This document shows, one piece after another, positions 6,065 to 56,558 of a stretch of 64,000 bases of DNA. Position numbers and translations under genes: made by a program. This stretch comes from Actinomycetota bacterium (GTDB taxonomy: Bacteria > Actinomycetota > UBA4738 > HRBIN12): assembly GCA_035288045.1 (NCBI GenBank), contig DATEBA010000023.1, positions 3,356-67,355 on the forward strand, in the 5' to 3' direction. Positions within the stretch are counted from its first letter, which is position 1, and each line of letters opens with the position of its first letter. Below the pieces are notes generated by a model. That model was given only the letters and a program-made list of their open reading frames with translations. It had not been told where the DNA came from and made no database searches.

Positions 6065-6087
6065 GCTTCAGATCGTAAGCGGAGGCG

Positions 6088-8412: not shown

Positions 8413-8451
8413 CGTGCGGCATCATACTCGGGTGCCCTGTGAGGGGATCCG

Positions 8452-9543: not shown

Positions 9544-9559
9544 AGGCGTCTGAGAGGAT

Positions 9560-9919: not shown

Positions 9920-9920
9920 C

Positions 9921-10739: not shown

Positions 10740-10760
10740 CGGCGCGAGATATCTGTTCCG

Positions 10761-12119: not shown

Positions 12120-12141
12120 GCAGGCCAGTCTAGGCCCGTGG

Positions 12142-13834: not shown

Positions 13835-13908
13835 CTCGCTCCTCCCGCGGCCCCAGAGGCTCATTCTAGCGAGCCGTCCCCCTCACAGGGGACATCGGCT
13901 CGTCCGGC

Positions 13909-15393: not shown

Positions 15394-15402
15394 GCCGGAA
15401 GG

Positions 15403-21630: not shown

Positions 21631-21712
21631 GCTGGTGCCCTCCCTGTCCGAACCCCGGGCTCTCCACCCGCGCTGATTGAATCTTCAGTCAAGCCGGCCC
21701 TCCCGTGCAAGT

Positions 21713-22669: not shown

Positions 22670-23046
22670 TCGCGCTTCACTTGCTCGTCGGCCCATCCTG
22701 CCGGCACCAGCTTGTCCCGCCGGGTGAGTAGGTTCACCCAGGACGAGGTGCCCTCCAGCTGCCAATCCACCGGCGGGTTCAGGTGCTCCATATGGTCCCG
22801 CCAGAGCGGAAGCTTCCGAGAGCGCTCCCAGGCAACCACCCAGGTGCACATGCGGTCGGGTTCCACCTCGCAGTTGCCGTTCTGCAAGACGCCGCCGCAG
22901 GGACCGTTGCGGAGGTTCTTCGGGCAGGTCATTGGGCATCGGAGCCCCGTGGAGTGCAGGATGCACTGGCCGCACATCCGGCAGTCCCAGAGCGGCTCCT
23001 TCGTGACCTTCTCCACGAGGAGGATCGCTCGCGTGCCGAGCCCCAT
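22666..23046 (-). CDS. MTHFR C-terminal-domain (MetV-like) Cys-rich zinc-ribbon protein
   Basis: Internal start M138 of ORF 22666..23457. CRMCGQCILHSTGLRCPMTCPKNLRNGPCGG...NCEVEPDRMCTW gives a multi-Cys pattern, as in the stand-alone MTHFR_C partner of MetF. Confidence 0.6.
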   Translation of the reverse strand: MGLGTRAILLVEKVTKEPLWDCRMCGQCILHSTGLRCPMTCPKNLRNGPCGGVLQNGNCEVEPDRMCTWVVAWERSRKLPLWRDHMEHLNPPVDWQLEGTSSWVNLLTRRDKLVPAGWADEQVKRE

Positions 23047-23114
23047 CTTCGGGCGCCCCCTCGCATTGGCCGTCTCCACCTGCCACCTCCCGTGGGGATC
23101 TCCCCGCCCCTCGA

Positions 23115-24269: not shown

Positions 24270-24401
24270 GCCCTCCTCCTCGATGTCTCGGGCTACGGAG
24301 AGACCGAGGGCGCCTGCGGCCCTGCCTCCGCGCCCTTCCGGGTCGTCGGCGTATCGTGCGAGCCCCGCCCCCCCGCAGCAACACCGCGCGTTGACCCCTG
24401 G

Positions 24402-25355
24402 TCAGGAGGCCGCCCCGCCGGAGTCGTTGGCCTGCGGCGGAGGGAAGATGCGCCCCTCCAGGTAGCCGCGGCCGACGATGGCCATGAACAGGTGAACCTC
24501 GTCCTCGTTCCAGGCGAAGGGCCCTTGCCGGGCGCCACGCGAGGCTAGCCCTCGCTGGACCGACTCGCACGCGGCCCAGTCCTCCCTGTTCGTCACGTCC
24601 CAGAACTCGCTCGCGTAGGAGGGGTCGAAGTCCGCGAGCTCCGTAACCTCCGGCGGAAAGAGCCAGGAGCACTCCACCCACGTCTTTCCCGGGGTGAGCG
24701 GATCCATGCGGTGCGTCATCACGTAGTCCGGGTGCAGGCTGATCAGCAGGTTAGGGAACAGCCCGTAGTAGTAGACCTCGCGGCGTTGCTTCTCGTCCAG
24801 GCCGCGGATCGGCACGCCCCCGCCCCTGCCGGTGAACGACATGGTCTCGGCGAAGTCCATGAGCTCCATGTTCCCACCGACCCAGCATCCGTTGTGGGGG
24901 AAGTTCTCACCACTGTCCACCGGCGTCACCTTGCACAGGGCCGGATGGATGCTCGGGCAGTGGTAGCACTCGTGGTAGTTCTCCGTAATCGTCTTCCAGT
25001 TAGCGTTCACGACGTATTCGTGCTTCGCCGCTACGAAGAGACGCTCGGGCTCCCACGGCGCGACGAGCTCATCGAGGTTCCCCACGTGCTCCTCGAAGGG
25101 GAGCGCATAGCCGGAGGCATCGGCGAACGCCCACCCGTGCCACTCGCGAACGACCCCGGGGCCCGAGAGTTCCTCCGCCCGACCGAGGCACACCCAGGAC
25201 CCCTCGAAGAAGTGGGAGCGTTCCCAGGCGAGAACCTCCTCTGACAGGTAGGCCTCCGGTGGCAGGGTCCGGCTCGCGCCCAGAGTGGACCTGAGCGCGG
25301 TCCGAATGGCCTGCGCGTCGACGGGTGCGATGGGTTCGACGGCTGCCCGGCTCAT
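24402..25355 (-). CDS. ring-hydroxylating oxygenase alpha-subunit homolog lacking the Rieske [2Fe-2S] domain
   Basis: ORF 317 aa. N-terminal LAWERSHFFEGSWVCLGRAEEL and the catalytic-domain motif NWKTITENYHECYHCPSIHP (mononuclear Fe His pair) are present. Only a relic (REWHGWAF) of the second Rieske box is present, and no CxH box. Confidence 0.55.
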   Translation of the reverse strand: MSRAAVEPIAPVDAQAIRTALRSTLGASRTLPPEAYLSEEVLAWERSHFFEGSWVCLGRAEELSGPGVVREWHGWAFADASGYALPFEEHVGNLDELVAPWEPERLFVAAKHEYVVNANWKTITENYHECYHCPSIHPALCKVTPVDSGENFPHNGCWVGGNMELMDFAETMSFTGRGGGVPIRGLDEKQRREVYYYGLFPNLLISLHPDYVMTHRMDPLTPGKTWVECSWLFPPEVTELADFDPSYASEFWDVTNREDWAACESVQRGLASRGARQGPFAWNEDEVHLFMAIVGRGYLEGRIFPPPQANDSGGAAS

Positions 25356-40577: not shown

Positions 40578-41777
40578 CTAGGCCACTTCCAGCGCGGCGA
40601 TCCCGGGGAGCGTCCTGCCCTCCAGGAACTCGAGCGAGGCGCCGCCACCGGTGGACAGGTGGTCGAAGGAGTCCTCGAGACCGAGCCTGCGCACCGCCGC
40701 GAGGCTGTCGCCTCCGCCCACGACGCTGAAGGCTCTCGATCCGGCGATCGCCATGGCCACGCCCCGGGTACCGGCGGAGAAGGGCTCGAGCTCGAACACC
40801 CCCATGGGGCCGTTCCATAGGATCGTTCCGGCGTCGGCGAGCGTCCGGGCGAACTCCTCCACGGTGCGCGGACCGACGTCCAGCGCCATCTCCCCCCTCG
40901 GCACGTCGTGAGCGGGGACCGTCCGCCGCGGCGAGTCGACCGACATCTCCGCAGCCGCGATCGCGTCCTCTGGGAGCTGGATCAGCACGCCGCGCTCGCC
41001 CGCCCTGCGCTGTGCCGCCCTCACGTCGTCGAACCTCTCGGGCTCGCAGAGGGTGGCGCCCACCTCGCCGCCGCCGGCCGCGATGATCGTGAAGGCCATC
41101 GCGCCGCCGATCAGCAACGCGTCGACCCGCTCGACCAGCGACCCGATGGTCGCGAGCTTATCGGAGACCTTGGCTCCGCCGAGGACGGCCATGTACGGCC
41201 TCTCCGGAGCGTCCCGGAGCTTCGACAGCACCTCTACCTCCCGGTGGAGCAGCCTGCCCGCAACAGCCCGCATGTCGTTGCCGCGGAACAGCTCCGGCAG
41301 CGCCGCGACCGAGGCGTGCGCGCGATGAGCCGCACCGAACGCGTCGTTCACGTAAGCGTCCGCGAGCACCGCGAGTCGCCTCGCGAAACCCGGGTCGTTC
41401 GCCTCCTCACCCGGGTCGAATCGGAGGTTCTCGAGGAGGACGACCTCGCCGGGCCCGATGTGCTCGCACACTGCCTCGACCTCGTCGCCTACCGTCTCGT
41501 CGAGCGCCATGACGTCGGCGACAAGCAGCTCCGAGAGCCGATCCGCCACCGGCGCTAGCCGCATCCCTTCCGCGACCCTGCCCCTCGGCCTCCCGAGATG
41601 CGAGGCGAGGATCAGCGAGGCTTCGCGCTCGAGGAGCTCGGTGAGAGTGGGGAGCGTCCGGCGGATGCGAAAGTCATCGGCGACGGCCCCCCCCTCGAGC
41701 GGGACGTTCAGGTCGGCGCGGACGAAGACCCGCTTCCCGGCGACGTCGCCGAGATCGTCGAGCGTGGGCAAGCTCAC
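40578..41777 (-). CDS. pgk: phosphoglycerate kinase
   Basis: GTG start V19 of ORF 40578..41831, in a GTGA overlap with the gap stop. KRVFVRADLNVPL, SHLGRP, LLENLRF, STGGGASLEFLEG. Confidence 0.9.
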   Translation of the reverse strand: MSLPTLDDLGDVAGKRVFVRADLNVPLEGGAVADDFRIRRTLPTLTELLEREASLILASHLGRPRGRVAEGMRLAPVADRLSELLVADVMALDETVGDEVEAVCEHIGPGEVVLLENLRFDPGEEANDPGFARRLAVLADAYVNDAFGAAHRAHASVAALPELFRGNDMRAVAGRLLHREVEVLSKLRDAPERPYMAVLGGAKVSDKLATIGSLVERVDALLIGGAMAFTIIAAGGGEVGATLCEPERFDDVRAAQRRAGERGVLIQLPEDAIAAAEMSVDSPRRTVPAHDVPRGEMALDVGPRTVEEFARTLADAGTILWNGPMGVFELEPFSAGTRGVAMAIAGSRAFSVVGGGDSLAAVRRLGLEDSFDHLSTGGGASLEFLEGRTLPGIAALEVA

Positions 41778-42781
41778 AGCGAGGCGGCGACCATCTCGAC
41801 CAGCTCGACGAGCCGGTTCGAGTATCCCCACTCGTTGTCGTACCAGCCGATCACCTTGACGAGGTTGCCGATGACCATCGTCGACTGGGCGTCGAACGTG
41901 CAGGACGCCGGGCTCCCGACGACGTCGCTCGACACGATAGGGTCCTCCGTGTAGACGAGGCGGCCACGCAGGCGCTCGGTGCCGGCCGCGACCTCGAACG
42001 CCCGGTTTATCTCCTCGGCCGTGACCTCGCGTCCGAGGATCGCGACCAGGTCGGTGACCGAGCCGTCGGGCACCGGGACGCGCATGGCCGTGCCGTCCAT
42101 CTTGCCCTTGAGCTGCGGGAGCGCCAGAGACGTCGCCTTGGCGGCTCCGGTCGAGGAGGGGACGATGTTGATCGCGGCCGCGCGAGCCCGGCGTAGGTCC
42201 TTGTGGGGCAGGTCGAGCAGGTTCTGGTCGTTCGTGTAGGCGTGGATCGTGGTCATCAGCGCGCGGTCGATCCCGAACGAGTCCTCGAGCACCTTCGCCA
42301 GCGGCACGACGCAGTTCGTGGTGCAGGAGGCGTTCGAGATTATGTTGTGGGCTGCGGGATCGTAGCCGTCCTCGTTCACCCCCATCACGATCGTGATGTC
42401 CTCGCCCTTCGCGGGCGCGCTGATGATGACCTTCTCGGCGCCGGCGGCGATGTGCGCCTCGGCCTTCTCCCGATCGGTAAACAGCCCCGTCGACTCCAGG
42501 ATGATCTGGGCGCCGAGCTCCTTCCAGGGGAGATCGGCCGGGTTGCGCTCGGCCAGGACCTTGAACGCCTTGCCGTCGACCGAGATGCCTTCGTCGGTTA
42601 CTCGGATGTCCGCGTCGAGGACACCCAGGACGGAGTCGTACTTCAGCAGGTGGGCGAGGGTCTTCGAATCGGTGATGTCGTTCACCGCGACGAAGTCGAA
42701 GTCGGCGCGGGTCTTCCTAGCGGCCCGGAGGAAGTTGCGTCCGATGCGACCGAAACCGTTGATGCCGATCTTGACGCTCAT
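41774..42781 (-). CDS. gap: glyceraldehyde-3-phosphate dehydrogenase
   Basis: ORF 335 aa. INGFGRIGRNF, ASCTTNC active-site Cys, WYDNEWGYS. Confidence 0.9.
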   Translation of the reverse strand: MSVKIGINGFGRIGRNFLRAARKTRADFDFVAVNDITDSKTLAHLLKYDSVLGVLDADIRVTDEGISVDGKAFKVLAERNPADLPWKELGAQIILESTGLFTDREKAEAHIAAGAEKVIISAPAKGEDITIVMGVNEDGYDPAAHNIISNASCTTNCVVPLAKVLEDSFGIDRALMTTIHAYTNDQNLLDLPHKDLRRARAAAINIVPSSTGAAKATSLALPQLKGKMDGTAMRVPVPDGSVTDLVAILGREVTAEEINRAFEVAAGTERLRGRLVYTEDPIVSSDVVGSPASCTFDAQSTMVIGNLVKVIGWYDNEWGYSNRLVELVEMVAASL

Positions 42782-42845
42782 TTCTCCTCCTAGGGGTGAG
42801 GCCCGGGCGCTCCCATCCTAGCGAGCGCCGCTGCGGGCGTCCGGC

Positions 42846-43769
42846 CTAGCGGTCCAGGTCGCGGTGATCCACGCCGACGGGGTAGCCGCGGTCCTTCAGG
42901 AACCGCGCCAACTCGTCCACGACGACGATAGAGCGATGTCGCCCGCCGGTGCAGCCGACGGCGATCGTGAGGTAGGACTTCCCCTCGGAGACGTACGCCG
43001 GCACGAGCAGCTCCAGCAAGGACTCGAGACGCGACATGAACTCCCAGTACAGATCCTGGCCCGTCACGAACTTCCGCACGCGCTCGTCGCTCCCGGGGAG
43101 CGGCCGTAGGTCCTCGATCCAGTGCGGGTTCGGCAGGAACCGGACGTCCAGCACCAGGTCGGCGTCCCGCGGGGTGCCGAACTTGAACCCGAACGACACG
43201 AGCGAGACCTGGATGCTCTCCTCCGGAGGAGCCTCCGCGAAGGCCTCGCGGATCCGGTCCCTGAGCTCGTGCGGTGTCAGCCCGGACGTGTCCACGATCA
43301 GGTCGGCCTCGCCGCGGAGGCTCTCCATCATCAGCCGCTCGCGGCGGATGCCCTCCACCACGCGGTCGGCGGGGGCGAGCGGGTGCCTGCGACGTGTGGC
43401 CTCGTACCGGTTCACGAGATCGACGTCCGCCGCCTCCAGGTACAGGATCCGGTAGGCGATGTGGAGCTTCTTCAGCTCCTCCAGCGCCTTCGAGAGTTCG
43501 CCGAAGAACACGCCTCCCCTAGCGTCTACCACGATCGCGACGCGGTGCGGACCGCCGGGGCCGGCGGCGAGCTCCGCCATCTTCGACAGCAGCGCCGGCG
43601 GAAGATTGTCGACGACGAAGTAGCCGAGGTCCTCCAGACACCGGGCCGCCTCCGAGCGGCCGGCGCCCGAAAGGCCGGTGATTATCGTGAAGCCCGGACC
43701 TCCGCGGGCGGCGGCCACGACTTCCCTCGTCCTACCCTTCGCCCGGCCCGCGCGCGCCGGCTCCGCCAT
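42846..43769 (-). CDS. rapZ: RNase adapter protein RapZ (P-loop NTPase, YvcJ family)
   Basis: Internal ATG M222 of ORF 42846..44432, in an ATGA overlap with the uvrC stop. GLSGAGRSEA Walker A. C-terminal GCTGGRHRS. Confidence 0.8.
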   Translation of the reverse strand: MAEPARAGRAKGRTREVVAAARGGPGFTIITGLSGAGRSEAARCLEDLGYFVVDNLPPALLSKMAELAAGPGGPHRVAIVVDARGGVFFGELSKALEELKKLHIAYRILYLEAADVDLVNRYEATRRRHPLAPADRVVEGIRRERLMMESLRGEADLIVDTSGLTPHELRDRIREAFAEAPPEESIQVSLVSFGFKFGTPRDADLVLDVRFLPNPHWIEDLRPLPGSDERVRKFVTGQDLYWEFMSRLESLLELLVPAYVSEGKSYLTIAVGCTGGRHRSIVVVDELARFLKDRGYPVGVDHRDLDR

Positions 43770-45697
43770 CAGGCGCTCGCCCTCCCCTCGACACGATGGA
43801 CCCGATCGTAGACGGCGCGGGCGAGCTCGGGGCCGAATCCGGGCGTAGCTTCGATCTCTCCGAGCGAAGCCCGGCGCAGCTCGGCAAGCGACCCGAATCT
43901 CCGCAGGAGAGTCCTCTTCCTCGCCGGACCGACGCCAGGGACGTCGTCCAGCGGGGAGGCCAGCGCGCGGCGAGCCCGCTTCTTCCGGTGGTACGCGATG
44001 GCGAACCGATGAGCCTCGTCGCGGAGGTGCTGGAGGACGAAGAGGGCCTCCGAGCCCCGCGGGATCCGCAGAGGGTCGGGACGGCCGGGGAGATAGACCT
44101 CCTCGAGGCGCTTCGCGAGCCCGACGGCGGGCAGCTCGAGTCCATGCTGCGCCAATGCCCTTGACGCCGCGCCGAGCTGCCCGCGGCCACCGTCCACGAC
44201 GATCAGCGAGGGTGGGTAGGCGAACCGCCGGCGCCCTGGTTCCTCGTCCTCGCCCTCGGCCAGCTTGGCGAACCTTCGCCGGAGCATCTCCCCCATACTG
44301 GCGAAGTCGTCCTGGCCGGGTACGCCCTTGATCTCGAACCGCCGGTAGTCCGAGCGCTTCGGAATCCCGTCCTCGAACACCACCATCGAGCCGACCGTGT
44401 CCGTGGGGCCGAGGTTCGAGACGTCGTAGCACTCGATCCGGAGGGGCGCCTGTGGCAGGCCGAGCTCGTTCGCGAGCTCCGCCAGCGCCCGGGAGCGTGC
44501 GCCGAAGTCGGAGGCGCGGCGGAGCTTGTGCCGCCTGAAGGCCTCCTCGGCGTTCCTGGTCGCGGTTTCGAGCAGGCGTCGCTTGGCGCCCCGCTCAGGA
44601 ACGCCGAGCGATACCTTTCCGCCACGCCGCTCCGAGAGCCACCTCTCGAGCACCGCCCGGTCCTCCGGCATCACCGGTACGAGGAAGCGGGGCGGCACCT
44701 CCGCGTCCTCACGCTCCATCGCGAGCTCGCGGATGAAGGAGGCGAGCAGGGCGGGCGGGTCGAGGTGCTCCACCTCGTCCACGACCCAGCCCTTCTGGCC
44801 CGTCACCCGGCCGCGCCTGACGAAGAAGACCTGGAACGCGGCCTCGAGATCATCCTCGACCAGACCGACGACGTCGAGGTCCTCCGGCTGCGTGAGGACC
44901 ATCTCCTGGCTCTCCATAGCGCGCCGAGCGGCGGTGAGCTGGTCGCGGAGCTTGGCAGCCAGCTCGAACTCGCGGCGCTCGGCGGCCTGCCGCATCTCGT
45001 TTTGAAGCCGCGCGAGGACGGGTCGCTCGTTCCCGGCCAGGAAGTCCTCCAGCGCCGCGACGTGGGCGCGGTAGGAGTCCTCGGTCACGCCTGTCGTCTC
45101 GGGCACGCACGGACCCGCGCACCGGCCGATGTCGTAGTAGAGGCACGGCCGTCGCGCGCGGGCTCGCTGGTCGAAGAACGAGTTGGAGCAGGTGCGGACC
45201 GGGAAGACTCGGGTGAGCGCGTCGAGCGTGTCCCGGATCGCGTACGCGTGCCCGAACGGGCCGAAGTACCGCGCGCCCTTCCTCTTGCGTCCGCGGAGAA
45301 CCTGCGCCCGCGGCCACCGCTCCCCGACCGTGATGGCGAGGTATGGGTAGGACTTGTCGTCCTTGTACCGGATGTTGAAGCGCGGCCGGTGCTCCTTGAT
45401 CAGGTTGTACTCGAGCATCAGGGCGTCGACCTCGCCTGAGGCCACGATCCACTCGACGGACTCGGCGGCGGCGAGCATGGCCTCGGTCCGGGCGTGCTGG
45501 GGTTTGGCCCAGTAGGTCGAGACGCGCTTGCGGAGCGAGCGCGCCTTGCCGACGTAGATCACGCGCCCGTCGCCGTCGCGGAAGAGGTAGGCGCCGGGCT
45601 CGTCGGGGATCGATGATCCTTCAGGCCGCGGAGCGCTCACGCGGCCATTGTAGGAGAGGGCACCCGCCGGGGCGGGGTACCTACTTGGTCTTCGCAA
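43769..45697 (-). CDS. uvrC: excinuclease ABC subunit C
   Basis: ORF 642 aa. GIY-YIG N-terminus (GAYLFRDGDGRVIYVGKARSLRKRV), UvrBC-interaction region, RNaseH-like and C-terminal HhH (GVGPARKRTLLRRFGS). Start may be V20. Confidence 0.9.
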   Translation of the reverse strand: MRRPSRYPAPAGALSYNGRVSAPRPEGSSIPDEPGAYLFRDGDGRVIYVGKARSLRKRVSTYWAKPQHARTEAMLAAAESVEWIVASGEVDALMLEYNLIKEHRPRFNIRYKDDKSYPYLAITVGERWPRAQVLRGRKRKGARYFGPFGHAYAIRDTLDALTRVFPVRTCSNSFFDQRARARRPCLYYDIGRCAGPCVPETTGVTEDSYRAHVAALEDFLAGNERPVLARLQNEMRQAAERREFELAAKLRDQLTAARRAMESQEMVLTQPEDLDVVGLVEDDLEAAFQVFFVRRGRVTGQKGWVVDEVEHLDPPALLASFIRELAMEREDAEVPPRFLVPVMPEDRAVLERWLSERRGGKVSLGVPERGAKRRLLETATRNAEEAFRRHKLRRASDFGARSRALAELANELGLPQAPLRIECYDVSNLGPTDTVGSMVVFEDGIPKRSDYRRFEIKGVPGQDDFASMGEMLRRRFAKLAEGEDEEPGRRRFAYPPSLIVVDGGRGQLGAASRALAQHGLELPAVGLAKRLEEVYLPGRPDPLRIPRGSEALFVLQHLRDEAHRFAIAYHRKKRARRALASPLDDVPGVGPARKRTLLRRFGSLAELRRASLGEIEATPGFGPELARAVYDRVHRVEGRASA

Positions 45698-47369
45698 CGG
45701 CCGAGACGAAGGTGCCGGTCATCGTCGTCGGGTGCACGTCGCAGCGGAAGAAGAAGACCCCCTCGTCAAGGGCCTTTACCTCGTAATCGATCGAGTCGGG
45801 GCCGGCTATCAGCTCACCGACGAAGAGCTTCGCCGCGGCGGGATCGGCCAGCGGATCGGTCTCGTGGATCGCCACGTTGTGCTGGACGCCGGCATCCTGG
45901 TTGTCGAAGCCGATCGTGAGGTCCTCGCCGGCCGGCGCCGCCAGGCAGTCGGTGTCGAAGCCCGACACGGCCGCGCCGGCAGGGGCGACGATCTCGAGCT
46001 CGGTTCCCTCGGGCTCGCACGCCGCCGCCGGAGGCCCCGTCGGCAGCGCCGCGGTCTCGGTCCCCGGCCCGCCCGTCGGGCTCGGCATCGCGAGCGCCAG
46101 GCCCTCCGTGTCGCCCAGGGCTCCGAGCAGCAGGTCGCCGTTCTCTCGGTCGTACCAAGCGAGGTAGACGGTCGAGCCGTCGGGCGCGACGCCCACCGCG
46201 GGCGAGTCGCCGCCCTCGGTCCCCTGGGTCTGGACCGGGGCGAACGACGAACCGCTCCCCGATGCCAGCCCGATCGCTTCCGACGCCCGGTCGTACCAGG
46301 CCACGTACTCCGTTCCCTGATCGTCCACGGTAACGCTCGTCGTAGCCGTACCAGTGCCCTCGCCCTCACCGAGCGTGGCGGCGGTGCCGACGAACCACCC
46401 GCCCCCCGAGGAGGAAGCGACGTGTACCTCGCTCCCCCCGGCCGCGAAGTAGGCGACGTGCGCGTTCCCGTCGCCGTCGACGGCCATCGAGAGCCCGGCG
46501 CCTCCTCCTCCCGTCTCGACCGGCGCGGTGCTCCAGGAGTCCTTGGGGCCGAGCCTGGCGAACATCGGGCTTCCCGCCGCGGTGTCGACGTAGGCGACGA
46601 ACGGCTCGCCGGCCGCGTCGAATCCCACCGCGGTTCGATCGGGCTGAGGGCAGCTCGAGCACCGGGCGATCTCGGCCACGCTGGCGCTCTCCCAGCCCTT
46701 CTCGCCTGGCCTTGCCAGCGTCACCGCCTGGGACTCCCCCTCGTTCAGGGTGTAGGCGACCGCTGGGCTCCCGGACCCATCGACCGCGATCCCCGGCGCG
46801 CCCAGAGGTCCGGCTGTCGTGAGCGGCTCTTGCAGCACAACGACCTGCTCCACGGCGAAGGAGCCGCCCGCGTTCGTCCCGTACCAGAGGCCGGTGTCTG
46901 CAGCCCACGCCACGTGAAGCTTCCCCTGGTCGTCGACCGCGACCGCCGTGCCGTTCACGTTGGTCGGGGTCGCGGTCGCGAGCTCCTCTAGGATCTGTGG
47001 CCCGAAGGCGACCTCCACGTTGGCGATCTCCTCAAGCATCGCGGCGGCGCCGCGGGTCCAGATCCCGCCGGAGATAGTTGCCACGGACACCGCAGGCAGG
47101 GAGGGCGCCCCTATCGGTCGCTGCACCGGGAGCTCTCCGGCCTCGAGCTCCTTCACGAACGAGAACGACACGACGTAAGGGATCCCGTTGGAGTCGATCG
47201 CGATCGACGGGTCGGCGCCCGCATCGTCCAGGAACTCGACTACTAGGGGGACGAACCGACGCCCGTCGCCGAGGTCCACCTCGGAGGCCGTTGGTTGCGC
47301 GCAAGCCGCAGCGATGACGCCTAGCGAGCAGACGAGGACGAGCGCTCTCCTGGACAAGACGGGGCGCAT
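45681..47369 (-). CDS. secreted lipoprotein: repeat-rich (beta-propeller-like) domain fused to C-terminal cupredoxin (type-1 copper) domain
   Basis: Internal M27 start of ORF 45681..47447. MRPVLSRRALVLVCSLGVIAAACA signal plus lipobox. Repeated ...YVAW/HVAY/VAY... blades. C-terminal HNVAIH ... FFFRCDVHPTTMTG gives a His/Cys/His/Met ligand set. Confidence 0.6.
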   Translation of the reverse strand: MRPVLSRRALVLVCSLGVIAAACAQPTASEVDLGDGRRFVPLVVEFLDDAGADPSIAIDSNGIPYVVSFSFVKELEAGELPVQRPIGAPSLPAVSVATISGGIWTRGAAAMLEEIANVEVAFGPQILEELATATPTNVNGTAVAVDDQGKLHVAWAADTGLWYGTNAGGSFAVEQVVVLQEPLTTAGPLGAPGIAVDGSGSPAVAYTLNEGESQAVTLARPGEKGWESASVAEIARCSSCPQPDRTAVGFDAAGEPFVAYVDTAAGSPMFARLGPKDSWSTAPVETGGGGAGLSMAVDGDGNAHVAYFAAGGSEVHVASSSGGGWFVGTAATLGEGEGTGTATTSVTVDDQGTEYVAWYDRASEAIGLASGSGSSFAPVQTQGTEGGDSPAVGVAPDGSTVYLAWYDRENGDLLLGALGDTEGLALAMPSPTGGPGTETAALPTGPPAAACEPEGTELEIVAPAGAAVSGFDTDCLAAPAGEDLTIGFDNQDAGVQHNVAIHETDPLADPAAAKLFVGELIAGPDSIDYEVKALDEGVFFFRCDVHPTTMTGTFVSAVAKTK

Positions 47370-47382
47370 ATTAGCAAGCCTT

Positions 47383-50274
47383 CTAGGCGGGCGAGCCGCC
47401 TCCGCCGCGAGCAGAGACCGCGACGCGGGGCGCCCGCGGTGTCCCAAGGACCTCCGCCAGAAACCGCCCCGTGTGGGACCCCGGGTGCGTGGCCACCTCC
47501 TCCGGCGGACCCGCCACGACGACCTCGCCGCCCGCCGCTCCCCCCTCGGGCCCGAGGTCGACGATCCAGTCCGCCGTCTTCACGACGTCCAGGTTGTGCT
47601 CGATCACGACCACCGTGTTGCCGCTCGAAACCAGGCGCTGAAGGACCGCGAGGAGCTTGCGGATGTCCTCGAAGTGCAGGCCGGTCGTCGGCTCGTCGAG
47701 CGCATAGAGCGTGTTCCCCGTGGCCCGCTTGTGCAGCTCCGAGCCGAGCTTGATGCGCTGCGCCTCGCCGCCGGACAGCGTCGGCGCCGGCTGCCCGAGT
47801 TTGATGTAGCCGAGCCCCACGTCGGATAGCGTCTGAAGGTAGCGAGCCAGGATCGGGATGTTCCGGAAGAACTCAAGCCCCTCGTCCACGCTCATCTCCA
47901 GGACGTCCGCGATCGAGCGGCCCTTGTACCTCACCTCGAGCGTCTCGCGATTGTACCGCCTCCCCTTGCAGACCTCGCAGGTCACGTACACGTCGGGAAG
48001 GAAGTGCATCTCGATCTTGATCTGGCCGTCGCCGGCGCAGTTCTCACACCGCCCCCCGCGAACGTTGAACGAGAACCGCCCGGGCTGGTAGCCGCGCACG
48101 CGCGCCTCCGGCGTCTGCGCGAACAGCTTCCGGACGTGATCGAACATGCCGGTGTAGGTCGCGGGGTTCGACCGCGGCGTTCGTCCTATCGGCGACTGAT
48201 CGATGTCGATCACCTTGTCGATCTGCTCCCAGCCGACGAGGCGCTTGTGCTTGCCGGGCAGCATGCGGGACCGATAGACCTTCTGGTTGAGTGCCCGCAA
48301 CAGAACGTCCTGGACCAGGGTCGACTTCCCAGAGCCCGATACACCGGTCACGCACACGAACAAGCCCAGCGGGATCTGGATCGTCACGTCTTTCAGGTTG
48401 TGCTCGCGGGCGCTCTCGAGTCGAAGCGTGCGTTCCCCGGGGACGCGGCGGACCTCGGGAACCGGGATCGAGCGACGCCCGGATAGATAGGCACCGGTCA
48501 ACGAGCCCTCCTCGTCGAGAAGGCCCTTCAGCGGCCCTGAGTAGACGATCTCCCCCCCGTGCTCTCCGGCGCCGGGGCCGATGTCGACGACGTGATCCGA
48601 CGCCTCGATCGTAGCTTCGTCGTGCTCGACGACGATCAGCGTGTTCCCGAGGTCACGGAGACGCAGCAGGGTGTCGATGAGCCGCCGGTTGTCGCGCTGG
48701 TGCAACCCGATCGATGGCTCGTCGAGGATGTAGAGCACTCCGACTAGGCCGCTGCCTATCTGCGTCGCTAGCCGGATCCGCTGCGCCTCGCCGCCGGCGA
48801 GCGTCGCCGACGCGCGGTCGAGCGAGAGGTAGTCGAGGCCGACGTCGACCAGGAAGCCGAGCCGGGCGCGGATCTCCCTTAGGAGCCGCTCGGCGATCAT
48901 CCGCTCGCGGTCCGAGAGCTCGACCGCGTCGATGAAGTCGAGCGTGTCGCGTATCGACTTCGTGGTGAGCTGCCATATAGTGATCCCGCCGACGGTCACT
49001 GCCAGGCTCTCCGGCCGGAGACGCGCGCCCTTGCAAGAGCGGCAGGGAACCTCCCGCATGAACTGCTCGAGGCGCTCGCGCTGCGTGTCGGAATCGGTCT
49101 CTGCGTGCCGCCGCTCCACGTTCGGGAGCAGGCCTTCGTAGGCGGTCCAGTACGACCGGAGCCGCCCGTATCGGTTCCGATACCTGACGTAGATCTCCTC
49201 GTCGGAGCCGTAGAGGATCACGTCCCGCGCCTTCTTCGCTAGCTTCTTCCACGGCGTGCTCACACCGAACCCATGCGCATCGGCGACGGCCTCGAGCACG
49301 CGGTCCCAGTACTCGAGGCGCGAGCCTCCCCAGGGCGCGAGCGCTCCCTCGGAGATCGAAAGGTCCGGATCCGGCACTACGAGCTCGGCGTCGACCTCGA
49401 GGCGGATGCCGAGCCCGTCGCACGTCTGGCAGGCGCCGTAGGGCGAGTTGAACGAGAAGTTCCGCGGCTGGAGCTCGTCGAAGGAGATGCCGCAATGCGT
49501 GCACGCGAGGTTCTGCGAGAAGCTCTGGACCTCCTCGTGCCCGTCGGTCCGCACCGCGACGGCAGCGATGCCCTCGGCGAGCTGGAGCGCGGTCTCGATC
49601 GAGTCGGCCACCCGCCGGCGGATGTCCGGCTTGGCGACGAGCCGGTCGACGACCACCTCGATCGTGTGCTTGTAGTGGCGTTCCAGGCGGATCGACTCGG
49701 ATAGGTCGCGGACGTCGCCGTCGATCCGGGCGCGGACGAACCCCTTGCGCGCCAGGTCGCCGAGGAGCTTCTCGTACTCGCCCTTGCGACCCCGGACGAC
49801 CGGCGCGAGCACCTGGAACCTCGTGCCCTCCGGCAGCTGGAGCACCTGGTCGACGATCTGCTCCGGGGTCTGCCGGCCGATCGGGCGACCGCACTTCGGA
49901 CAGTGTGGGTGGCCGATCCGCGCGAACAGCACCCGCAGGTAGTCGTAGATCTCGGTGATCGTCCCGACGGTCGACCTTGGGTTCTTGGAGGTCGACTTCT
50001 GGTCGATCGAGATCGCCGGCGATAGCCCCTCGATGAAGTCGACGTCCGGCTTCTCCATCTGCCCGAGGAACTGGCGGGCGTAGGCGGAGAGCGACTCCAC
50101 GTAGCGCCGCTGACCCTCCGCGTAGATCGTGTCGAAGGCGAGCGAGCTCTTGCCCGAGCCGGAGAGGCCCGTGAACACGATCAGCCTGTCCCGGGGAAGC
50201 TCGAGCGTGATGTTCCTCAGGTTGTGCTCACGGGCGCCGTGGATGATTAGCTTCTCGGTGCCCACGGCGGGCAT
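47383..50274 (-). CDS. uvrA: excinuclease ABC subunit A
   Basis: ORF 963 aa. Two ABC modules ([10 protein letters not shown]; [10 protein letters not shown]), zinc fingers, LSGGEAQR signatures. N-terminus matches the GAREHNL pattern. Functional start may be the GTG at codon 4 (50265). Confidence 0.9.
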
Positions 50275-50300
50275 TGTAGTGCGGGTCCCAGACAGGACTT
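50275..50300 (-). promoter_or_regulatory. candidate leaderless promoter of uvrA with RecA-NDp-like (PafBC-type) upstream motif
   Basis: Minus strand: TGTCT-gggacccgcac(11 nt)-TACAAT, with the -10 hexamer ending 7 nt before an in-frame GTG (codon 4 of the uvrA ORF). Same architecture as upstream of uvrB. Confidence 0.35.
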
Positions 50301-50323: not shown

Positions 50324-51655
50324 ATGCGGCGACCCGAGGTGCCCTTCCGGGAGGCGCTCCGGTTCTGGGTCAAGCTGGGGTTCGTCAATTTCGGCGGGCC
50401 GACCGGTCAGATCGCGATCATGCACCATGAGCTCGTCGAGAAGCGCCGCTGGATGGAAGAGGACCGGTTCCTCCACGCGCTCAACTTCTGCACGCTGCTC
50501 CCTGGCCCGGAGGCGCAGCAACTCGCGATATACGTCGGGTGGCTGCTGCACAGGGCCCGGGGCGGCATCGTCGCCGGAATCGCCTTTGTGCTGCCCGCGA
50601 TGTACCTCATGCTCGGGCTCGCGTGGCTCTACGCGGTCCACGGGGAGCTCTCGTGGGTCGCGGCGGTCTTCGACGGGCTCGGGGCGGCCGTCGTGGGCAT
50701 CGTCGGCGCGGCCGTGATCCGCATCGGGGCGCGAACTCTCTCTAGCGGCGCGATGGTTGCAGTGGCCGCCGCCTCGTTCGCCGGTCTGTTCCTGTACCGG
50801 CTGCCCTTCCCCGCGGTGATCCTCGCGGCCGGCGCGCTCGGCTTCGCGGGTGGGCACCTCCGCCCGGACGTGTTCTCCACGATCCGTGACCAGAGCGATT
50901 CGAGCGAGAACCTCGACGAGGAGGTCGCGATGCACACGCGGCCGAGCTTGGGTCGGTCCGTGAGGGTCCTGGGGATCGGGCTCGCGGTCTGGTGGGCTCC
51001 GCTGGTTCTCGTCGCGCTCCTGCGCGGTCCCGGTGACGTGTTGACCGACGAGGCTCTCTTCTTCAGCAAGGCTGCTGTGGTCACGTTCGGCGGCGCCTAT
51101 GCGGTGCTCGCCTACATCGACAGGGCAGCGGTCGGCTACGGGTGGCTCACTCCGGGCGAGATGGTCACCGGCCTCGGGCTGGCCGAGTCCACGCCGGGGC
51201 CGCTCATCATGGTCACCCAGTTCGTCGGGTTCGTCGCGGCGTACCGCTCACCCGGCGGCCTGGATCCGCTGGTGGCCGGTGTCATCGGCGCGCTCGTGAC
51301 CGTATGGGCGACGTTCGCGCCGAGCTTCCTCTGGGTGTTCCTGGGAGCTCCGTACGTGGAGCGACTGCGCGGGAACGTGCGACTGCGGGGCACGCTCGCC
51401 ACGATCACCGCGGCGGTCGTCGGCGTGGTGCTCAGCCTCGCCGTCTCGTTCGCCCTCCGTGTGCTGTTCGAGGACGTTCGCGTGTTCCATCTTCTCGGCG
51501 CGACGATCCCCGTCCCGACCCCGTCCTCGCTCGATCCGTTCGCAACGGCGGTCGCGCTCATCGCCTTCCTCGGCATCTGGCGTAGCCGCTGGAACGTGGT
51601 ACCTGTGGTCATAGCGAGCGCGGCCGCGGGATGGCTGCGTTCGCTGATCTCCTGA
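50324..51655 (+). CDS. chrA: chromate transporter ChrA (two CHR domains)
   Basis: Internal ATG of ORF 50129..51655. [31 protein letters not shown] and the repeated second half ([12 protein letters not shown]) are the ChrA duplicated-domain pattern. Confidence 0.8.
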
Positions 51656-52221: not shown

Positions 52222-52710
52222 ATGAAGGAGCCGTGGGACGACTGGGGTGTGGACAGGAAGCCCGGGCTGACCCGGGAGGAGATGGCCGAACGCGCCAAGC
52301 GCTCGACAGAAGCGTTCATCGCCGAGATCGAGACAATGCCCGAGGAGGCTCTCGCACGCCCGGCTGCCGTGGGTATCTGGTCGGGCCACGAGGTCGTCGC
52401 CCACTGCGTCGTGTGGCACGACTACGCGGTCGAGGTCCTTCGCAGGAGCCTCGACGGCACCTTCCGGGTCGAGGACTTCGAGTACCCGGACGAGGACGAG
52501 TACAACGAGCGCACCGCCGCGGAGCTGGCACCACTCGCGACCACCGAGCTCCTCGGCCGGCTGCGCTCCGCGGCCGACATGGTCGGTGAGCTACTGGAGC
52601 GCCTTCCCGAGGATGAATGGCGCGCGCGCGATCGCTACGAGGTCGTCGTCACCGGGGAGCTGGTCGACCATCTCGACGAGCACATGGAGGACCTCCGCAA
52701 GCTGGGCTAG
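52222..52710 (+). CDS. DinB_2/mycothiol-maleylpyruvate-isomerase-N-like (DinB/YfiT superfamily) protein
   Basis: ATG inside ORF 51631..52710 with an AAGGAG RBS. ...WSGHEVVAHCVVWHDYAVEVLRR... His-rich four-helix-bundle pattern. Confidence 0.5.
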   Translation: MKEPWDDWGVDRKPGLTREEMAERAKRSTEAFIAEIETMPEEALARPAAVGIWSGHEVVAHCVVWHDYAVEVLRRSLDGTFRVEDFEYPDEDEYNERTAAELAPLATTELLGRLRSAADMVGELLERLPEDEWRARDRYEVVVTGELVDHLDEHMEDLRKLG

Positions 52711-53675
52711 ACGCCGCGCACGACCCGGCCGGTCCTGACGACGATCCTCACGTCGGCGAGCGCGTCCAGGCCTTCCAGCGGATCGCTCCCGACCGCCACC
52801 AGATCGGCGGGGCTGCCCGGTTCGAGCGGGCCGGGCGTCATGGCCTCGAGCACCTCCTCGGGCGACATGCCGATCGCCTCGTGCAGCAGCAGCGCCTCCC
52901 GAACGTCGATCCCCGGTGGTATCGGCCCGTTGCCCAGGTCGGTGCCGTAGACGATGGGTCCGCCGGCGGCGCGGAACCGGACGAGGTTGTCCGCGGCCGT
53001 GCGCAGCTCCGGCGTGACCTCGCCGTAGGAGAGGATGTCCAGCGTCGACACGATCCGCAGTGTGCGCGCGGCCGCCTCGAGCACCCGATCTTCCACGCGC
53101 TCGCCCCAAGGCGCGTGCGCGAGCTCGTCGACGCCGGCCCCGACCGCGCGCTCGACCTGACCCTCGCCCTGCGCGTGGGCGGTCACCGGCAACCCGCGTC
53201 CGTGCGCAGCCTCGCAGATTCCCGATAGCTCCGAGTCCGACAGGGTCGGCCCTGCCTCGGCGTTCAGAGAGACCTTGATCGCGGTCGCCCCCCGGTCGGC
53301 CAGTTTCCCCACCTCGGCCGCGGCTTCGTCGCTGCCGGAGACCTCGAGGCCCGTCCCGGCGGGTCCCCAGCCCGCCCGGGTCGGGTACCCTCCGGGCGCC
53401 GTCAGCATCGGCCCGGTGGCGCGCACGAGCGGCCCGTTGAACGAGGGCAGCTCGGACGCCTCGGCGAGCGCGAAGATCTCGTCGGCCGGCCACGCCAGGT
53501 CGCGCACGGCCGTGACGCCGCCCAGGAGGACGGCCGCAGGGTCCGAGAGCAGAACGTGCACGTGCCGATCGGCCACCGCCGGCATCAGGAACCCGTCGAC
53601 CTCCAGCCGCTCGTCGACCGGCGGGGCACCCGCCGACGGTCCCGCGTATGCAACAACGCCATCCTCTGCGACCAC
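52707..53675 (-). CDS. amidohydrolase-family metal-dependent hydrolase
   Basis: ORF 322 aa. ADRHVHV, VTAHAQG, YGTDLGN are partial amidohydrolase metal-ligand motifs. The N-terminus may extend upstream. Confidence 0.5.
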   Translation of the reverse strand: MVAEDGVVAYAGPSAGAPPVDERLEVDGFLMPAVADRHVHVLLSDPAAVLLGGVTAVRDLAWPADEIFALAEASELPSFNGPLVRATGPMLTAPGGYPTRAGWGPAGTGLEVSGSDEAAAEVGKLADRGATAIKVSLNAEAGPTLSDSELSGICEAAHGRGLPVTAHAQGEGQVERAVGAGVDELAHAPWGERVEDRVLEAAARTLRIVSTLDILSYGEVTPELRTAADNLVRFRAAGGPIVYGTDLGNGPIPPGIDVREALLLHEAIGMSPEEVLEAMTPGPLEPGSPADLVAVGSDPLEGLDALADVRIVVRTGRVVRGV

Positions 53676-53745: not shown

Positions 53746-55761
<2,016 letters not shown>

Positions 55762-55795
55762 GGACCGATTGTATGGCCCAACCGCGACACGGGAT
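55762..55795 (-). promoter_or_regulatory. candidate leaderless promoter of uvrB with RecA-NDp-like (PafBC-type) upstream motif
   Basis: Minus strand: TGTCG-cggttgggcca(11 nt)-TACAAT-cggtcc-GTG(uvrB start). The -10 hexamer is 6 nt upstream of the start codon, and the TGTCG element sits at the spacing reported for the mycobacterial RecA-independent DNA-damage promoter. Confidence 0.4.
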
Positions 55796-55811
55796 CGGCG
55801 ATCGGTGAGCT

Positions 55812-56558
55812 TCAGAGCCTGCCGGCCTCGACGATCCGCTGGAGGAACTGCTTCGTCCGCGGCTCCCGGGGCGCCGAGAAGATCTGCTCGGGTGGGCCCT
55901 CCTCCAGGATCACGCCGTCGTCCAGGAAGCACACCCTGCTCGCGATGTCCCGTGCAAATCCCATCTCGTGGGTCGCGATCAGCATCGTCATGCCGGCCGC
56001 GGCAAGCTCGCGGATGACGTTCAAGACCTCGGCGATGAGCTCCGGGTCCAGCGCGCTCGTGACCTCGTCCAGCAGCATGATGTCCGGGCGCATCGCGAGA
56101 GCCCTGACGATCGCCACGCGCTGCTGCTGGCCGCCTGAGAGCCTGTCTGGATACTCCTCCGCTTTGTCGGCAAGACCGAACCGTTCGAGCAGCTCGCGCG
56201 CCTCGTCATCCGCATCGGTGCGCTGCTTGCCGAGCACCTTCTCCGGCGCCAGTGTGACGTTCCGGAGGACCGACATGTGCGGGAACAGGTTGAACGCCTG
56301 GAACACGATGCCTATCCGCCGACGGATCCGGTCCTCGTCGACTCCGCGTGCGGTGATGTCCTCACCGTGCACGATGATCCTGCCGGCATCGACCGGCTCC
56401 AGCAGGTTCACGCATCGCAGCATCGTCGACTTCCCCGACCCGGATGCACCGATCAGGCAGACGACCTCGTGCTCCGCGAGCGAAAGGTCGACCCCCCGGA
56501 GCACGCGGTTGCCGTCGAAGGACTTGTGCACGCCCTCCAGCCGAAGCGCTTCCTTCAC
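55812..56558 (-). CDS. polar amino acid ABC transporter ATP-binding protein
   Basis: ORF 248 aa. GASGSGKST Walker [24 protein letters not shown]. Confidence 0.85.

What the first reader, a model, noticed from the sequence alone, without database searches (positions are those of the whole stretch)
45681..47369. Lipoprotein combining a repeat-rich (beta-propeller-like) domain with a C-terminal type-1 copper (cupredoxin) domain, wedged between uvrC and uvrA
After a lipobox signal, the mature protein has repeated short …(Y/H)VA(W/Y)… blades rich in Gly, Ser and Thr. It ends in a plastocyanin/azurin-like module with ligands His (HNVAIH), Cys-x2-His-x4-Met (CDVHPTTM). A blue-copper electron-transfer domain tethered to a propeller on the cell surface is unusual. 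Its location inside the otherwise conserved uvrC…uvrA stretch suggests a lineage-specific insertion.
Basis: partly seen in the sequence, partly recalled or inferred. Interest (0 to 1): 0.5.

Follow-up and report, generated by a model that had tools for sequence, protein, structure and literature searches.

The report
Membrane-anchored propeller plus blue-copper protein
This is a real, conserved but uncharacterised gene of uncultured soil-type Actinomycetota: a lipid-anchored surface protein that joins a seven-bladed propeller to an azurin/auracyanin-like blue-copper domain, most likely a tethered electron carrier, and it always sits between the DNA-repair genes uvrA and uvrC.

Summary
The ORF at 45681-47369 (-) encodes a lipobox signal peptide, a confidently predicted seven-bladed beta-propeller, a disordered Pro/Thr/Gly linker and a C-terminal cupredoxin. 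The copper ligands His497, Cys543, His546 and Met550 are invariant in 40 of 40 homologues.

It is not a recent insertion. The species-representative genome scan found 566 stretches encoding a relative of the query, some matching only the copper domain. All 80 loci kept are uncultured Actinomycetota MAGs. In the roughly 75 loci with a full-length or near-full-length homologue, the order is uvrA-X-uvrC-(rapZ)-gap-pgk-tpi. X is only 29-46% identical while UvrA is 77-86% identical.

X carries its own conserved extended -10 element. uvrA carries a PafBC/RecA-NDp-type promoter, and uvrC has its own -10.

The same cupredoxin module, at 53-64% identity, forms the C-terminal tail of a NirK-like copper enzyme in related MAGs, including one MAG that also carries X.

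Best reading: a membrane-tethered type-1 copper electron carrier whose propeller serves as a docking or ligand-binding platform. It is a new variant of a known kind, of moderate interest.

The parts
45681..47369 (-). Coding sequence of the propeller-cupredoxin lipoprotein ('X'). It is 562 aa from the ATG at 47369; the probable true start is the TTG at 47357 (558 aa).
   Evidence: homologues; start-codon reasoning.
47301..47369 (-). Signal peptide with lipobox (…GVIAAA-C23); Cys23 is the predicted lipidated residue.
   Evidence: Read from the sequence. A22 and C23 are conserved in at least 90% of 40 homologues. A lipobox was found in most genome-derived homologues.
46110..47261 (-). Seven-bladed beta-propeller (residues ~37-420) of unclassified BNR/NHL-like type. 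The N-terminal strand closes blade 7.
46023..46109 (-). Flexible Pro/Thr/Gly/Ala-rich linker (residues ~421-449).
   Evidence: pLDDT below 50 for residues 428-448; sequence TEGLALAMPSPTGGPGTETAALPTGPPAAA.
45696..46022 (-). Type-1 copper cupredoxin domain (residues ~450-558) with the Cys451/Cys475 pair.
45879..45881 (-). Codon of His497, the N-terminal copper ligand (motif QHNVAI).
   Evidence: Invariant in 40/40; aligns with the QHNW ligand motif of auracyanin A.
45720..45743 (-). Copper ligand loop C543-D-V-H546-P-T-T-M550.
   Evidence: C543, H546, P547 and M550 are invariant in 40/40. The loop is present in 69/70 loci. Coordinates were read.
47368..47376 (-). Extended -10 promoter-like element TGCTAATAT (family consensus gCTTGCTAGGAT), immediately after the uvrA stop codon and 10 nt before the TTG at 47357.
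   Evidence: TGnTAnnnT lies at a fixed distance from the lipobox codon in 55 of 71 distinct upstream regions; the control rate is 0.1%. The reading frame of the motif differs between loci, so the conservation is in the DNA, not the protein.
47383..50294 (-). uvrA plus its RecA-NDp/PafBC-type promoter: TGTC 50294-50291, 12 nt, TACAAT 50278-50273, then a probable leaderless GTG start at 50265.
   Evidence: Pfam. The motif is present in 35/52 distinct upstream regions against a control rate of 0.0003. The consensus is taken from PMC5656591.
43769..45652 (-). uvrC with its own -10 hexamer (TACAAT 45652-45647) 6 nt before the GTG start at 45640, which lies 40 nt after the X stop codon.
   Evidence: Pfam; sequence; TAnnnT lies 5-9 nt before an in-frame start in 69/77 loci.

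Best explanation
X is a Sec-exported lipoprotein. Its lipidated Cys23 holds it on the outer face of the cytoplasmic membrane of an uncultured actinomycetotal lineage.

The redox-active part is the C-terminal azurin/auracyanin-like cupredoxin. It binds one type-1 copper through His497, Cys543, His546 and Met550. It hangs on a flexible linker of about 25 residues. Most likely it carries single electrons between a membrane respiratory complex and extracytoplasmic redox partners, as lipid-anchored auracyanin and neisserial azurin do. In a cell without free periplasmic carriers, such a protein has to be tethered.

The seven-bladed propeller carries no recognisable cofactor site. It is most likely a non-catalytic platform that binds a partner protein or a cell-envelope ligand such as a glycan, and so positions the copper domain.

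The position between uvrA and uvrC is an ancient fixed feature of the clade. X has its own conserved extended -10 promoter, so it need not have any role in DNA repair. With no terminator in between, read-through from the damage-type uvrA promoter is possible.

Shown here: the domain architecture, ligand conservation, fold, synteny and promoter-like elements. Inferred: copper binding, the electron-carrier role, the propeller's role, and transcription.
For: - Lipobox conserved.
- Confident two-domain model with a disordered linker.
- The full type-1 ligand set is invariant in 40/40 and present in 69/70 loci.
- 17/70 homologues carry two tandem cupredoxins, each with a full ligand set.
- The same module, including its ACxPxGT junction, forms the C-terminal tail of a NirK-like copper enzyme at 53-64% identity, including in the MAG that also holds X (L023 and L085). 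The solved tethered-cupredoxin nitrite reductases that appear among the fold matches (6tfd, 9cck) are fusions of that kind; that the tether there supplies electrons is my own knowledge.
- The propeller has one invariant His, no conserved Met, and only a loop CxxC pair. Its nearest folds are lectins, sialidase-like proteins and NHL sensor propellers. Its sequence relatives are giant multi-propeller surface proteins with PKD/FlgD-Ig domains.
- Own promoter-like element.
Against: - No redox partner is encoded nearby, so donor and acceptor are unknown.
- A 400-residue propeller is a large investment for a mere spacer. It keeps invariant polar residues (R84, R106, H152, D262, D360, D407) that could equally mark a catalytic or substrate site.
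- The window protein's own Pfam Cupredoxin_1 score is below the gathering cutoff (22 vs 27 bits).
- AlphaFold does not model copper, and I could not inspect coordinates or inter-domain error.
- No family member has been studied experimentally. Database names are only 'cupredoxin domain-containing', 'plastocyanin' or 'hypothetical'.
Confidence: 0.5

Rival explanations
1. X is an enzyme. The propeller is the catalytic domain of an unknown extracytoplasmic oxidoreductase, and the tethered cupredoxin is its built-in electron relay. This would parallel NosZ (propeller plus cupredoxin), methylamine dehydrogenase with amicyanin, or the NirK-like fusion found in related MAGs.
For: - In related MAGs the same cupredoxin module is attached to a catalytic NirK-like core.
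- Invariant polar residues in the propeller: R84, R106, H152, D262, D360, D407.
- Enzymes such as CylK, virginiamycin B lyase and hydrazine synthase beta are among the top propeller fold matches.
Against: - Only one invariant His, and no conserved Met or Cys beyond a loop CxxC that some members lack. No copper cluster like CuZ is therefore possible.
- No CuA motif.
- No Pfam or NCBIfam match to any catalytic propeller family.
- The propeller evolves fast (29-46% identity), while the copper loop is invariant.
Confidence: 0.2
2. X belongs functionally to the DNA-damage or oxidative-stress response. It would be co-expressed with uvrA from the PafBC-type promoter and act at the cell surface during stress, for example in redox defence or sensing.
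For: - Strict uvrA-X-uvrC order in all loci examined.
- RecA-NDp-like motif upstream of uvrA in 35/52 regions.
- The window encodes pafB and pafC.
- There is no terminator and only 13 nt between the uvrA stop and the annotated ATG of X.
- In mycobacteria the PafBC regulon includes UvrABC and oxidative-stress genes (PMC8223512).
Against: - X has its own strongly conserved extended -10 element and uvrC has its own -10, so each gene can be transcribed independently.
- The whole block from uvrB to tpi is syntenic in this clade, so a fixed position may only reflect low rearrangement.
- X is extracytoplasmic, whereas nucleotide excision repair is cytoplasmic.
- No precedent was found (the propeller-cupredoxin searches also turned up none).
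Confidence: 0.12
3. X handles copper rather than electrons. It would be a surface copper-binding, sequestering or chaperone protein, like CupA, CopC, or EfeO/FtrB-type cupredoxin-like domains.
Against: - The complete His/Cys/His/Met set in the canonical positions is the signature of electron-transfer type-1 sites. It aligns ligand for ligand with auracyanin and plastocyanin.
- The best matches are electron carriers.
- No cop or cso genes lie in the neighbourhood.
Confidence: 0.08

Closest known systems
Auracyanin A/B (Chloroflexus aurantiacus) and lipid-modified azurin Laz (Neisseria): membrane-tethered type-1 blue copper electron carriers
   Different: In X a 400-residue seven-bladed propeller lies between the lipid anchor and the copper domain; the known proteins have only a short tether. 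The ligand loop is shorter (C-x2-H-x3-M, plastocyanin/amicyanin-like length). Sequence identity is only ~24%. Some family members carry two copper domains.
Nitrite reductases with a tethered cupredoxin (e.g. PDB 6tfd, 9cck) and the NirK-like fusion found here in related MAGs
   Same: The C-terminal cupredoxin of the NirK-like proteins in L081, L083, L085, L087 and L088 is 53-64% identical to X's domain and shares the same linker junction. This falls within the range seen between X orthologues (33-72%). The module is clearly a portable tethered unit.
   Different: In X the module is attached to a propeller with no copper site, not to a two-domain T1/T2 copper catalytic core. The NirK-like proteins score below the NCBIfam equivalog cutoff (197 vs 296 bits).
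Nitrous oxide reductase NosZ
   Different: There is no CuZ histidine set (one invariant His in the propeller). There is no CuA Cys-x3-Cys motif. There is no NosZ profile match. X is not a member.
NHL / BNR-like extracellular propellers (PknD sensor domain, PLL/PHL lectins, sialidase-like proteins)
   Same: The blade repeats resemble them: the profile hits the PknD NHL propeller at E=5e-6, the top Foldseek hits are PLL/PHL lectins, and there are weak BNR_4/SBBP/BNR_2 Pfam hits. They are also extracytoplasmic and probably bind ligands.
   Different: X has seven blades where PknD and the sialidases have six. It has no Asp-boxes and no FRIP motif. No Pfam repeat family reaches its cutoff. Identity to any solved propeller is at most 15%.

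Membership tests
Type-1 (blue) copper cupredoxins (plastocyanin/azurin family) | Greek-key beta-sandwich cupredoxin fold | tested here: met
Type-1 (blue) copper cupredoxins (plastocyanin/azurin family) | Ligand set: upstream His plus a C-terminal Cys-Xn-His-Xm-Met loop | tested here: met
   H497, C543, H546 and M550 are invariant in 40/40. The loop is present in 69/70 loci. The ligands align with those of plastocyanin and auracyanin A.
Type-1 (blue) copper cupredoxins (plastocyanin/azurin family) | Profile match above the curated threshold (Pfam PF13473/PF00127) | tested here: inconclusive
   The window protein scores 22 bits against a cutoff of 27. However, 39/40 family members match PF13473 (best 9e-27) and 17/40 match PF00127.
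Type-1 (blue) copper cupredoxins (plastocyanin/azurin family) | Binds one Cu with the ~600 nm band, small A-parallel EPR signal and reversible one-electron redox chemistry | not testable with these tools
   Requires purified protein.
Bacterial lipoproteins (PROSITE PS51257-type signal) | Basic n-region, hydrophobic h-region and a lipobox ending in Cys within the first ~35 residues | tested here: met
   MRPVLSRRALVLVCSLGVIAAA-C23. A22 and C23 are conserved in at least 90% of homologues. Most homologues have an 18-residue signal peptide before the Cys.
Bacterial lipoproteins (PROSITE PS51257-type signal) | Lgt/LspA processing and acylation | not testable with these tools
   Experimental.
Nitrous oxide reductase NosZ | Seven conserved His in the propeller that bind CuZ | tested here: not met
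   H152 is the only invariant His in the propeller; the window protein has three His there.
Nitrous oxide reductase NosZ | CuA motif with two Cys (C-x3-C-x3-H) in the cupredoxin | tested here: not met
   The regex found none; there is a single ligand Cys.
NHL repeat / BNR (sialidase-like) propellers | Repeat profile above the Pfam threshold; Asp-box SxDxGxTW or FRIP motif for sialidases | tested here: not met
   BNR_4 scores 19 bits against 27.3 and SBBP 7.8 against 20.5. There are no Asp-boxes and no FRIP motif. There is only profile-level similarity to PknD NHL blades, E=5e-6.
PDIAV motif-containing lipoprotein (NF053835) | Equivalog score of at least 90 bits | tested here: not met
   32.4 bits over part of the repeats only.

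The most novel reading that the evidence does not exclude
X is a new kind of extracytoplasmic oxidoreductase. The cofactor-poor seven-bladed propeller would bind and position a substrate, such as a cell-wall, humic or metal species, on its conserved Arg/Asp/His face. The tethered type-1 copper domain (one or two in series) would wire it to the respiratory chain. This would be an actinobacterial counterpart of the NHL-propeller-plus-cupredoxin sets seen in extracellular electron-uptake clusters. It might also be induced together with uvrA under genotoxic or oxidative stress.
Probability: 0.15. Interest if true: 0.7.

Novelty: new variant of a known kind. Interest (0 to 1): 0.42.

Why it matters
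Soil Actinomycetota known only from metagenomes are abundant, and how they move electrons outside the membrane is poorly known.

This family is widespread in one such uncultured clade. The species-representative genome scan found 566 stretches encoding a relative of the query, some matching only the copper domain, and the family forms about 80 clusters at 50% identity. Public databases label it only 'hypothetical', 'plastocyanin' or 'cupredoxin domain-containing'.

If it is the tethered carrier that feeds extracytoplasmic enzymes such as the NirK-like protein, it would fill a gap in models of nitrogen-oxide and metal redox chemistry by these organisms.

The fusion of a propeller to a blue-copper domain would also be a new way of positioning an electron carrier.

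The fixed uvrA-X-uvrC arrangement is a handy synteny marker for the clade.

Tried and rejected
- **LexA control of the cluster.** No SOS box (TCGAAC-N4-GTTCGA, up to 2 mismatches) lies near uvrA or X. Ten matches in the window is close to what shuffles give.
- **Intrinsic terminators or sigma-70 promoters by the generic scan.** Nothing relevant lies between the genes. The conserved -10 elements were found only by comparing loci.
- **NosZ, sialidase and PDIAV-lipoprotein membership.** Each was tested and not met.
- **Tat export.** The window protein has S-R-R, but homologues have K-R or R-K, so a twin-arginine signal is not conserved. Rejected.
- **Other copper or NirK genes in the window.** None were found by tblastn.
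- **AFDB fold search.** The library was unavailable.
- **Genome scan with the 40-sequence alignment.** It failed for lack of a conserved stretch and was redone with 10 sequences.
- **Literature.** 'PDIAV' returned nothing relevant. The searches for propeller-cupredoxin lipoproteins found no description of this family.
- **Naming the clade.** I could not name it below the phylum. Records say only 'Actinomycetota' or 'Actinomycetes bacterium'.
- **Mapping residues on the model.** I could not map conserved propeller residues in 3D or read the inter-domain predicted error, because model coordinates are not exposed.
Full report
**1. What is in the sequence**

The minus-strand ORF 45681-47369 encodes 562 residues. 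A longer frame from a TTG at 47447 overlaps the end of uvrA and is not needed.

The N-terminus is MRPVLSRRALVLVCSLGVIAAAC. It has a basic n-region, a hydrophobic core and an Ala-Ala-Ala-Cys lipobox.

Seven repeats of the form (I/V)A(V/I)D-x2-G-x-P-x-VA(Y/W) begin at residues 56, 143, 194, 248, 294, 346 and 393 (the fifth was read from the sequence).

The C-terminus carries QH497NVAI and C543-D-V-H546-P-T-T-M550.

Pfam on the single sequence gives only a sub-threshold Cupredoxin_1 hit (E=1.7e-4, 22 bits against a cutoff of 27). A sequence search of the PDB gives plastocyanin at E=0.014.

GC content (0.69-0.74) is like that of the neighbours.

**2. It is a family, and the ligands are conserved**

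A search of 5.8 billion proteins returned 158 hits, and every one of the 120 listed comes from a metagenome or MAG. Where named, they are called 'cupredoxin domain-containing protein', 'plastocyanin' or 'hypothetical'.

There are two size classes. Proteins of about 540-570 aa have one cupredoxin. Proteins of about 650-660 aa have two, and these also match PF00127.

In a 40-sequence alignment, H497, C543, H546, P547 and M550 are invariant. A22 and C23 of the lipobox are at least 90% conserved, and C451 is invariant.

Across that alignment, 39/40 members match Pfam Cupredoxin_1 (best 9e-27) and 17/40 match Copper-bind.

Among 70 full-length homologues recovered from genome loci, 69 have the C-x2-H-P-x(1-3)-M loop and 17 have it twice.

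The window protein's own cluster contains an NCBI entry named 'hypothetical protein [Actinomycetota bacterium]'.

**3. Structure**

AlphaFold2 with the 40-sequence alignment gives mean pLDDT 89.1 and pTM 0.71. Residues ~37-420 form an all-beta propeller, with the N-terminal strand closing the last blade. Residues 428-448 are disordered (pLDDT below 50). Residues 457-557 form an eight-strand sandwich.

A family profile against PDB sequences gives auracyanin A at E=2.4e-10, with the four ligands aligned. Amicyanin and plastocyanin score near 1e-4. The blades match the NHL sensor propeller of M. tuberculosis PknD at E=5e-6.

The two cysteines C451 and C475 are 24 residues apart. From my own knowledge, this is close to the spacing of the Cys3-Cys26 disulfide of azurin. 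Some members lack the second cysteine.

**4. What the propeller is not**

It has no Asp-boxes, no FRIP motif and no CuA-type motif. No Pfam or NCBIfam repeat family reaches its threshold. The hits are BNR_4 at 19 bits, SBBP at 7.8 bits and PDIAV_lipo at 32 bits against a cutoff of 90.

The conserved polar residues are D48, R84, R106, H152, D197, C237/C240, D262, D349, D360, D397 and D407. With a single invariant His and no conserved Met, a copper cluster such as CuZ is excluded.

From the order of strands in each blade I infer that several of these residues lie on the 'top' face, which is usually the binding face. They include the R84-P85-x-G-x-P89 loop and the Asp at the end of the second strand in blades 4, 6 and 7. 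I could not check this on coordinates.

A phmmer search of the propeller alone against 1.84 billion representatives found 5600 hits at E up to 1e-3 and 100 at E up to 1e-30. About 80 hits are X-like (500-660 aa). The rest are proteins of 700-3500 aa with 5-12 matched stretches at 26-32% identity. Pfam on a sample of these shows BNR_4, SBBP, BNR_2, PKD and FlgD-Ig domains, which are typical of large surface proteins.

**5. Genomic context**

Pfam confirms the following genes in the window:
- uvrB: 53746-55932 (-)
- an amidohydrolase: 52707-53675 (-)
- a chromate transporter: 50324-51655 (+)
- uvrA: 47383-50274 (-)
- X
- uvrC: 43769-45640 (-)
- rapZ: 42846-43748 (-)
- gap, pgk and tpi, followed by a cofactor-independent phosphoglycerate mutase

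Six contigs carrying homologues of 38-47% identity all show uvrA-X-uvrC-rapZ-gap-pgk-tpi on one strand.

A scan of one genome per species (GTDB) found 566 stretches encoding a relative of the query, some matching only the copper domain. All 80 kept are MAGs labelled 'Actinomycetota' or 'Actinomycetes bacterium', plus one 'Planctomycetaceae' bin that is probably a mis-binned contig.

tblastn with the window's neighbours shows the same order in every locus that holds a full-length or near-full-length homologue, about 75 loci in all. UvrA is 77-86% identical and UvrC is 66-80% identical apart from three fragmentary or frameshifted loci, but X is only 29-46% identical. The slot is therefore ancient and fixed, and X evolves much faster than its neighbours, as exported proteins often do.

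**6. The cupredoxin is a shared module**

Several loci in the scan matched only residues ~445-557, yet at 53-64% identity. In five of them (L081, L083, L085, L087, L088) this stretch is the C-terminal domain of a protein of 466-565 aa with motifs typical of copper nitrite reductase.

The best NCBIfam match of these proteins is copper-containing nitrite reductase TIGR02376 (E=6.6e-58), at 197 bits against a cutoff of 296. Pfam shows Cu-oxidase_3, Cu-oxidase_2 and Cupredoxin_1. I call them NirK-like.

The linker junction 'AACxPxGT' is the same as in X. L085 and L023 (a full-length X) come from the same MAG.

The identity falls within the range seen between X orthologues for this domain (33-72%).

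Solved nitrite reductases with a tethered cupredoxin (6tfd, 9cck) appear among the fold matches. From my own knowledge, the tethered domain in such enzymes passes electrons to the catalytic core. This is my main reason to read X's domain as an electron-transfer unit.

**7. Transcription signals (found by comparing loci)**

*uvrA.* TGTC-N12-TAnnnT ends 6-10 nt before the start codon (GTG/ATG-GGC-ACC-GA) in 35 of 52 distinct upstream regions, against a control rate of 0.0003. The -10 hexamer alone is present in 51 of 52.
- This matches the RecA-NDp consensus tTGTCRgtg-8 nt-TannnT (PMC5656591), which is the target of PafBC. In mycobacteria the PafBC regulon includes UvrABC (PMC8223512, PMC6789036).
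- The window itself encodes pafB (7462-8412) and pafC (6492-7508), next to pafA, the proteasome subunits, dop and the proteasomal ATPase.
- In the window the motif is TGTC 50294-50291 and TACAAT 50278-50273. This points to a leaderless GTG start at 50265.
- No LexA box was found.

*X.* An extended -10 element lies at a fixed distance from the lipobox codon in 55-57 of 71 distinct regions. Its consensus is gCTTGCTAGGAT, that is, TGnTAnnnT. It sits 64-65 nt upstream of the lipobox Cys codon, or 10-11 nt before the start codon that gives an 18-residue signal peptide. Control rates are 0.1% for TGnTAnnnT and 1.6% for TAnnnT alone.
- The motif's reading frame relative to the start differs between loci, so the conservation is in the DNA.
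- The 'MLARIPADVSKR…' N-termini in databases are therefore probably mis-called starts.
- In the window the element is TGCTAATAT (47376-47368). The likely start is the TTG at 47357, because the ATG at 47369 overlaps the hexamer.

*uvrC.* A -10 hexamer lies 5-9 nt (mostly 6-7) before GTG-AGC-GTC in 69 of 77 loci. In the window it is TACAAT at 45652-45647, with the GTG at 45640.

No terminator-like hairpin separates the three genes. Each gene thus seems to have its own promoter, and read-through from uvrA remains possible. All of this is inference from sequence.

**8. Interpretation**

The most economical reading is a lipid-anchored type-1 copper electron carrier on the outer face of the membrane, comparable in role to auracyanin or neisserial Laz. 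The propeller would act as a docking or ligand-binding platform.

In favour of a carrier:
- the full, invariant ligand set;
- the nearest structural relatives;
- tandem copper domains in a quarter of the members;
- the re-use of the module on a NirK-like enzyme.

Against a catalytic propeller: there is no cofactor signature.

Against the carrier reading: there is no identified partner, and the conserved Arg/Asp/His set on a large propeller could mark a substrate site.

A preprint on Ca. Tenderia describes a cupredoxin (UetF) next to NHL propeller proteins (UetH/I) in an extracellular electron-uptake cluster, and notes NHL proteins that stabilise outer cytochrome complexes (10.1101/2022.05.06.490989). 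I treat this as a lead, not evidence.

**9. Novelty and score**

The parts are known kinds: lipoprotein signal, BNR/NHL-like propeller and type-1 cupredoxin. I did not find the combination described. The family has no functional name in any source, and no cultured organism appeared among the hits listed.

I rate it a new variant of a known kind, with interest 0.42. It is a solid, widespread, unstudied protein family with a testable role, but its biochemistry is not surprising.

Noticed in passing
window 50263-50294 (-); loci L001-L082: uvrA is preceded by a RecA-NDp/PafBC-type promoter (TGTC-N12-TACAAT) that ends 7 nt before a GTG. This suggests a leaderless uvrA whose true start is the GTG at 50265, not the ATG at 50274. 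The motif is conserved in 35/52 distinct upstream regions, against a control rate of 0.0003.
   Followed up: yes
window 6492-17151 (-): A complete Pup-proteasome locus: proteasomal ATPase (15403-17151), Dop-like Pup_ligase (13909-15393), two proteasome subunits (12142-13631), PafA-like Pup ligase (10761-12119), then pafB (7462-8412; WYL+WCX) and pafC (6492-7508; HTH_PafC+WYL+WCX), with tatC at 4687-5457. The organism therefore encodes the regulator expected for the uvrA promoter motif.
   Followed up: partly
window 45638-45652 (-); 69/77 loci: uvrC has its own conserved -10 hexamer (TACAAT/TAGAAT) 6-7 nt before a GTG-AGC-GTC start. uvrC therefore probably starts at the GTG at 45640, not at the TTG at 45697 that overlaps X.
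   Followed up: yes
window 41774-43748 (-); loci L001, L003, L005, L007, L008: rapZ is followed directly by gap-pgk-tpi. The yvcK and whiA genes that lie between rapZ and gap in many Actinobacteria (from my own knowledge) are absent from this position throughout the clade.
   Followed up: no
L081, L083, L085, L087, L088 (about 4600-6350 in each): NirK-like copper enzyme (TIGR02376 at 176-197 bits, below the cutoff) with a C-terminal tethered cupredoxin 53-64% identical to X's domain. L085 comes from the same MAG as the full-length X in L023.
   Followed up: partly
L038 (JBLMXP010000251.1): A contig binned as 'Planctomycetaceae bacterium' carries uvrA-X-uvrC, with UvrA 81% identical to the window's. 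It is probably an actinomycetotal contig placed in the wrong bin.
   Followed up: no
window 20461-25355 (-): Two paralogous glycine-cleavage-T-like aminomethyltransferases (20461-21630 and 23115-24269) lie next to a Rieske-type ring-hydroxylating oxygenase alpha subunit (24402-25355). This may be a methylated-amine demethylation cluster.
   Followed up: no
window 50324-51655 (+): A chromate transporter (ChrA family) is divergently placed upstream of uvrA. In related loci this variable slot holds a small 92-109 aa ORF or a VIT1 protein instead.
   Followed up: no
proteins P0153, P0164, P0171, P0175 and others: Giant proteins of 700-3500 aa carry 5-12 copies of the same blade type as X's propeller, combined with PKD and FlgD-Ig domains. 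They form an uncharacterised family of multi-propeller surface proteins.
   Followed up: partly
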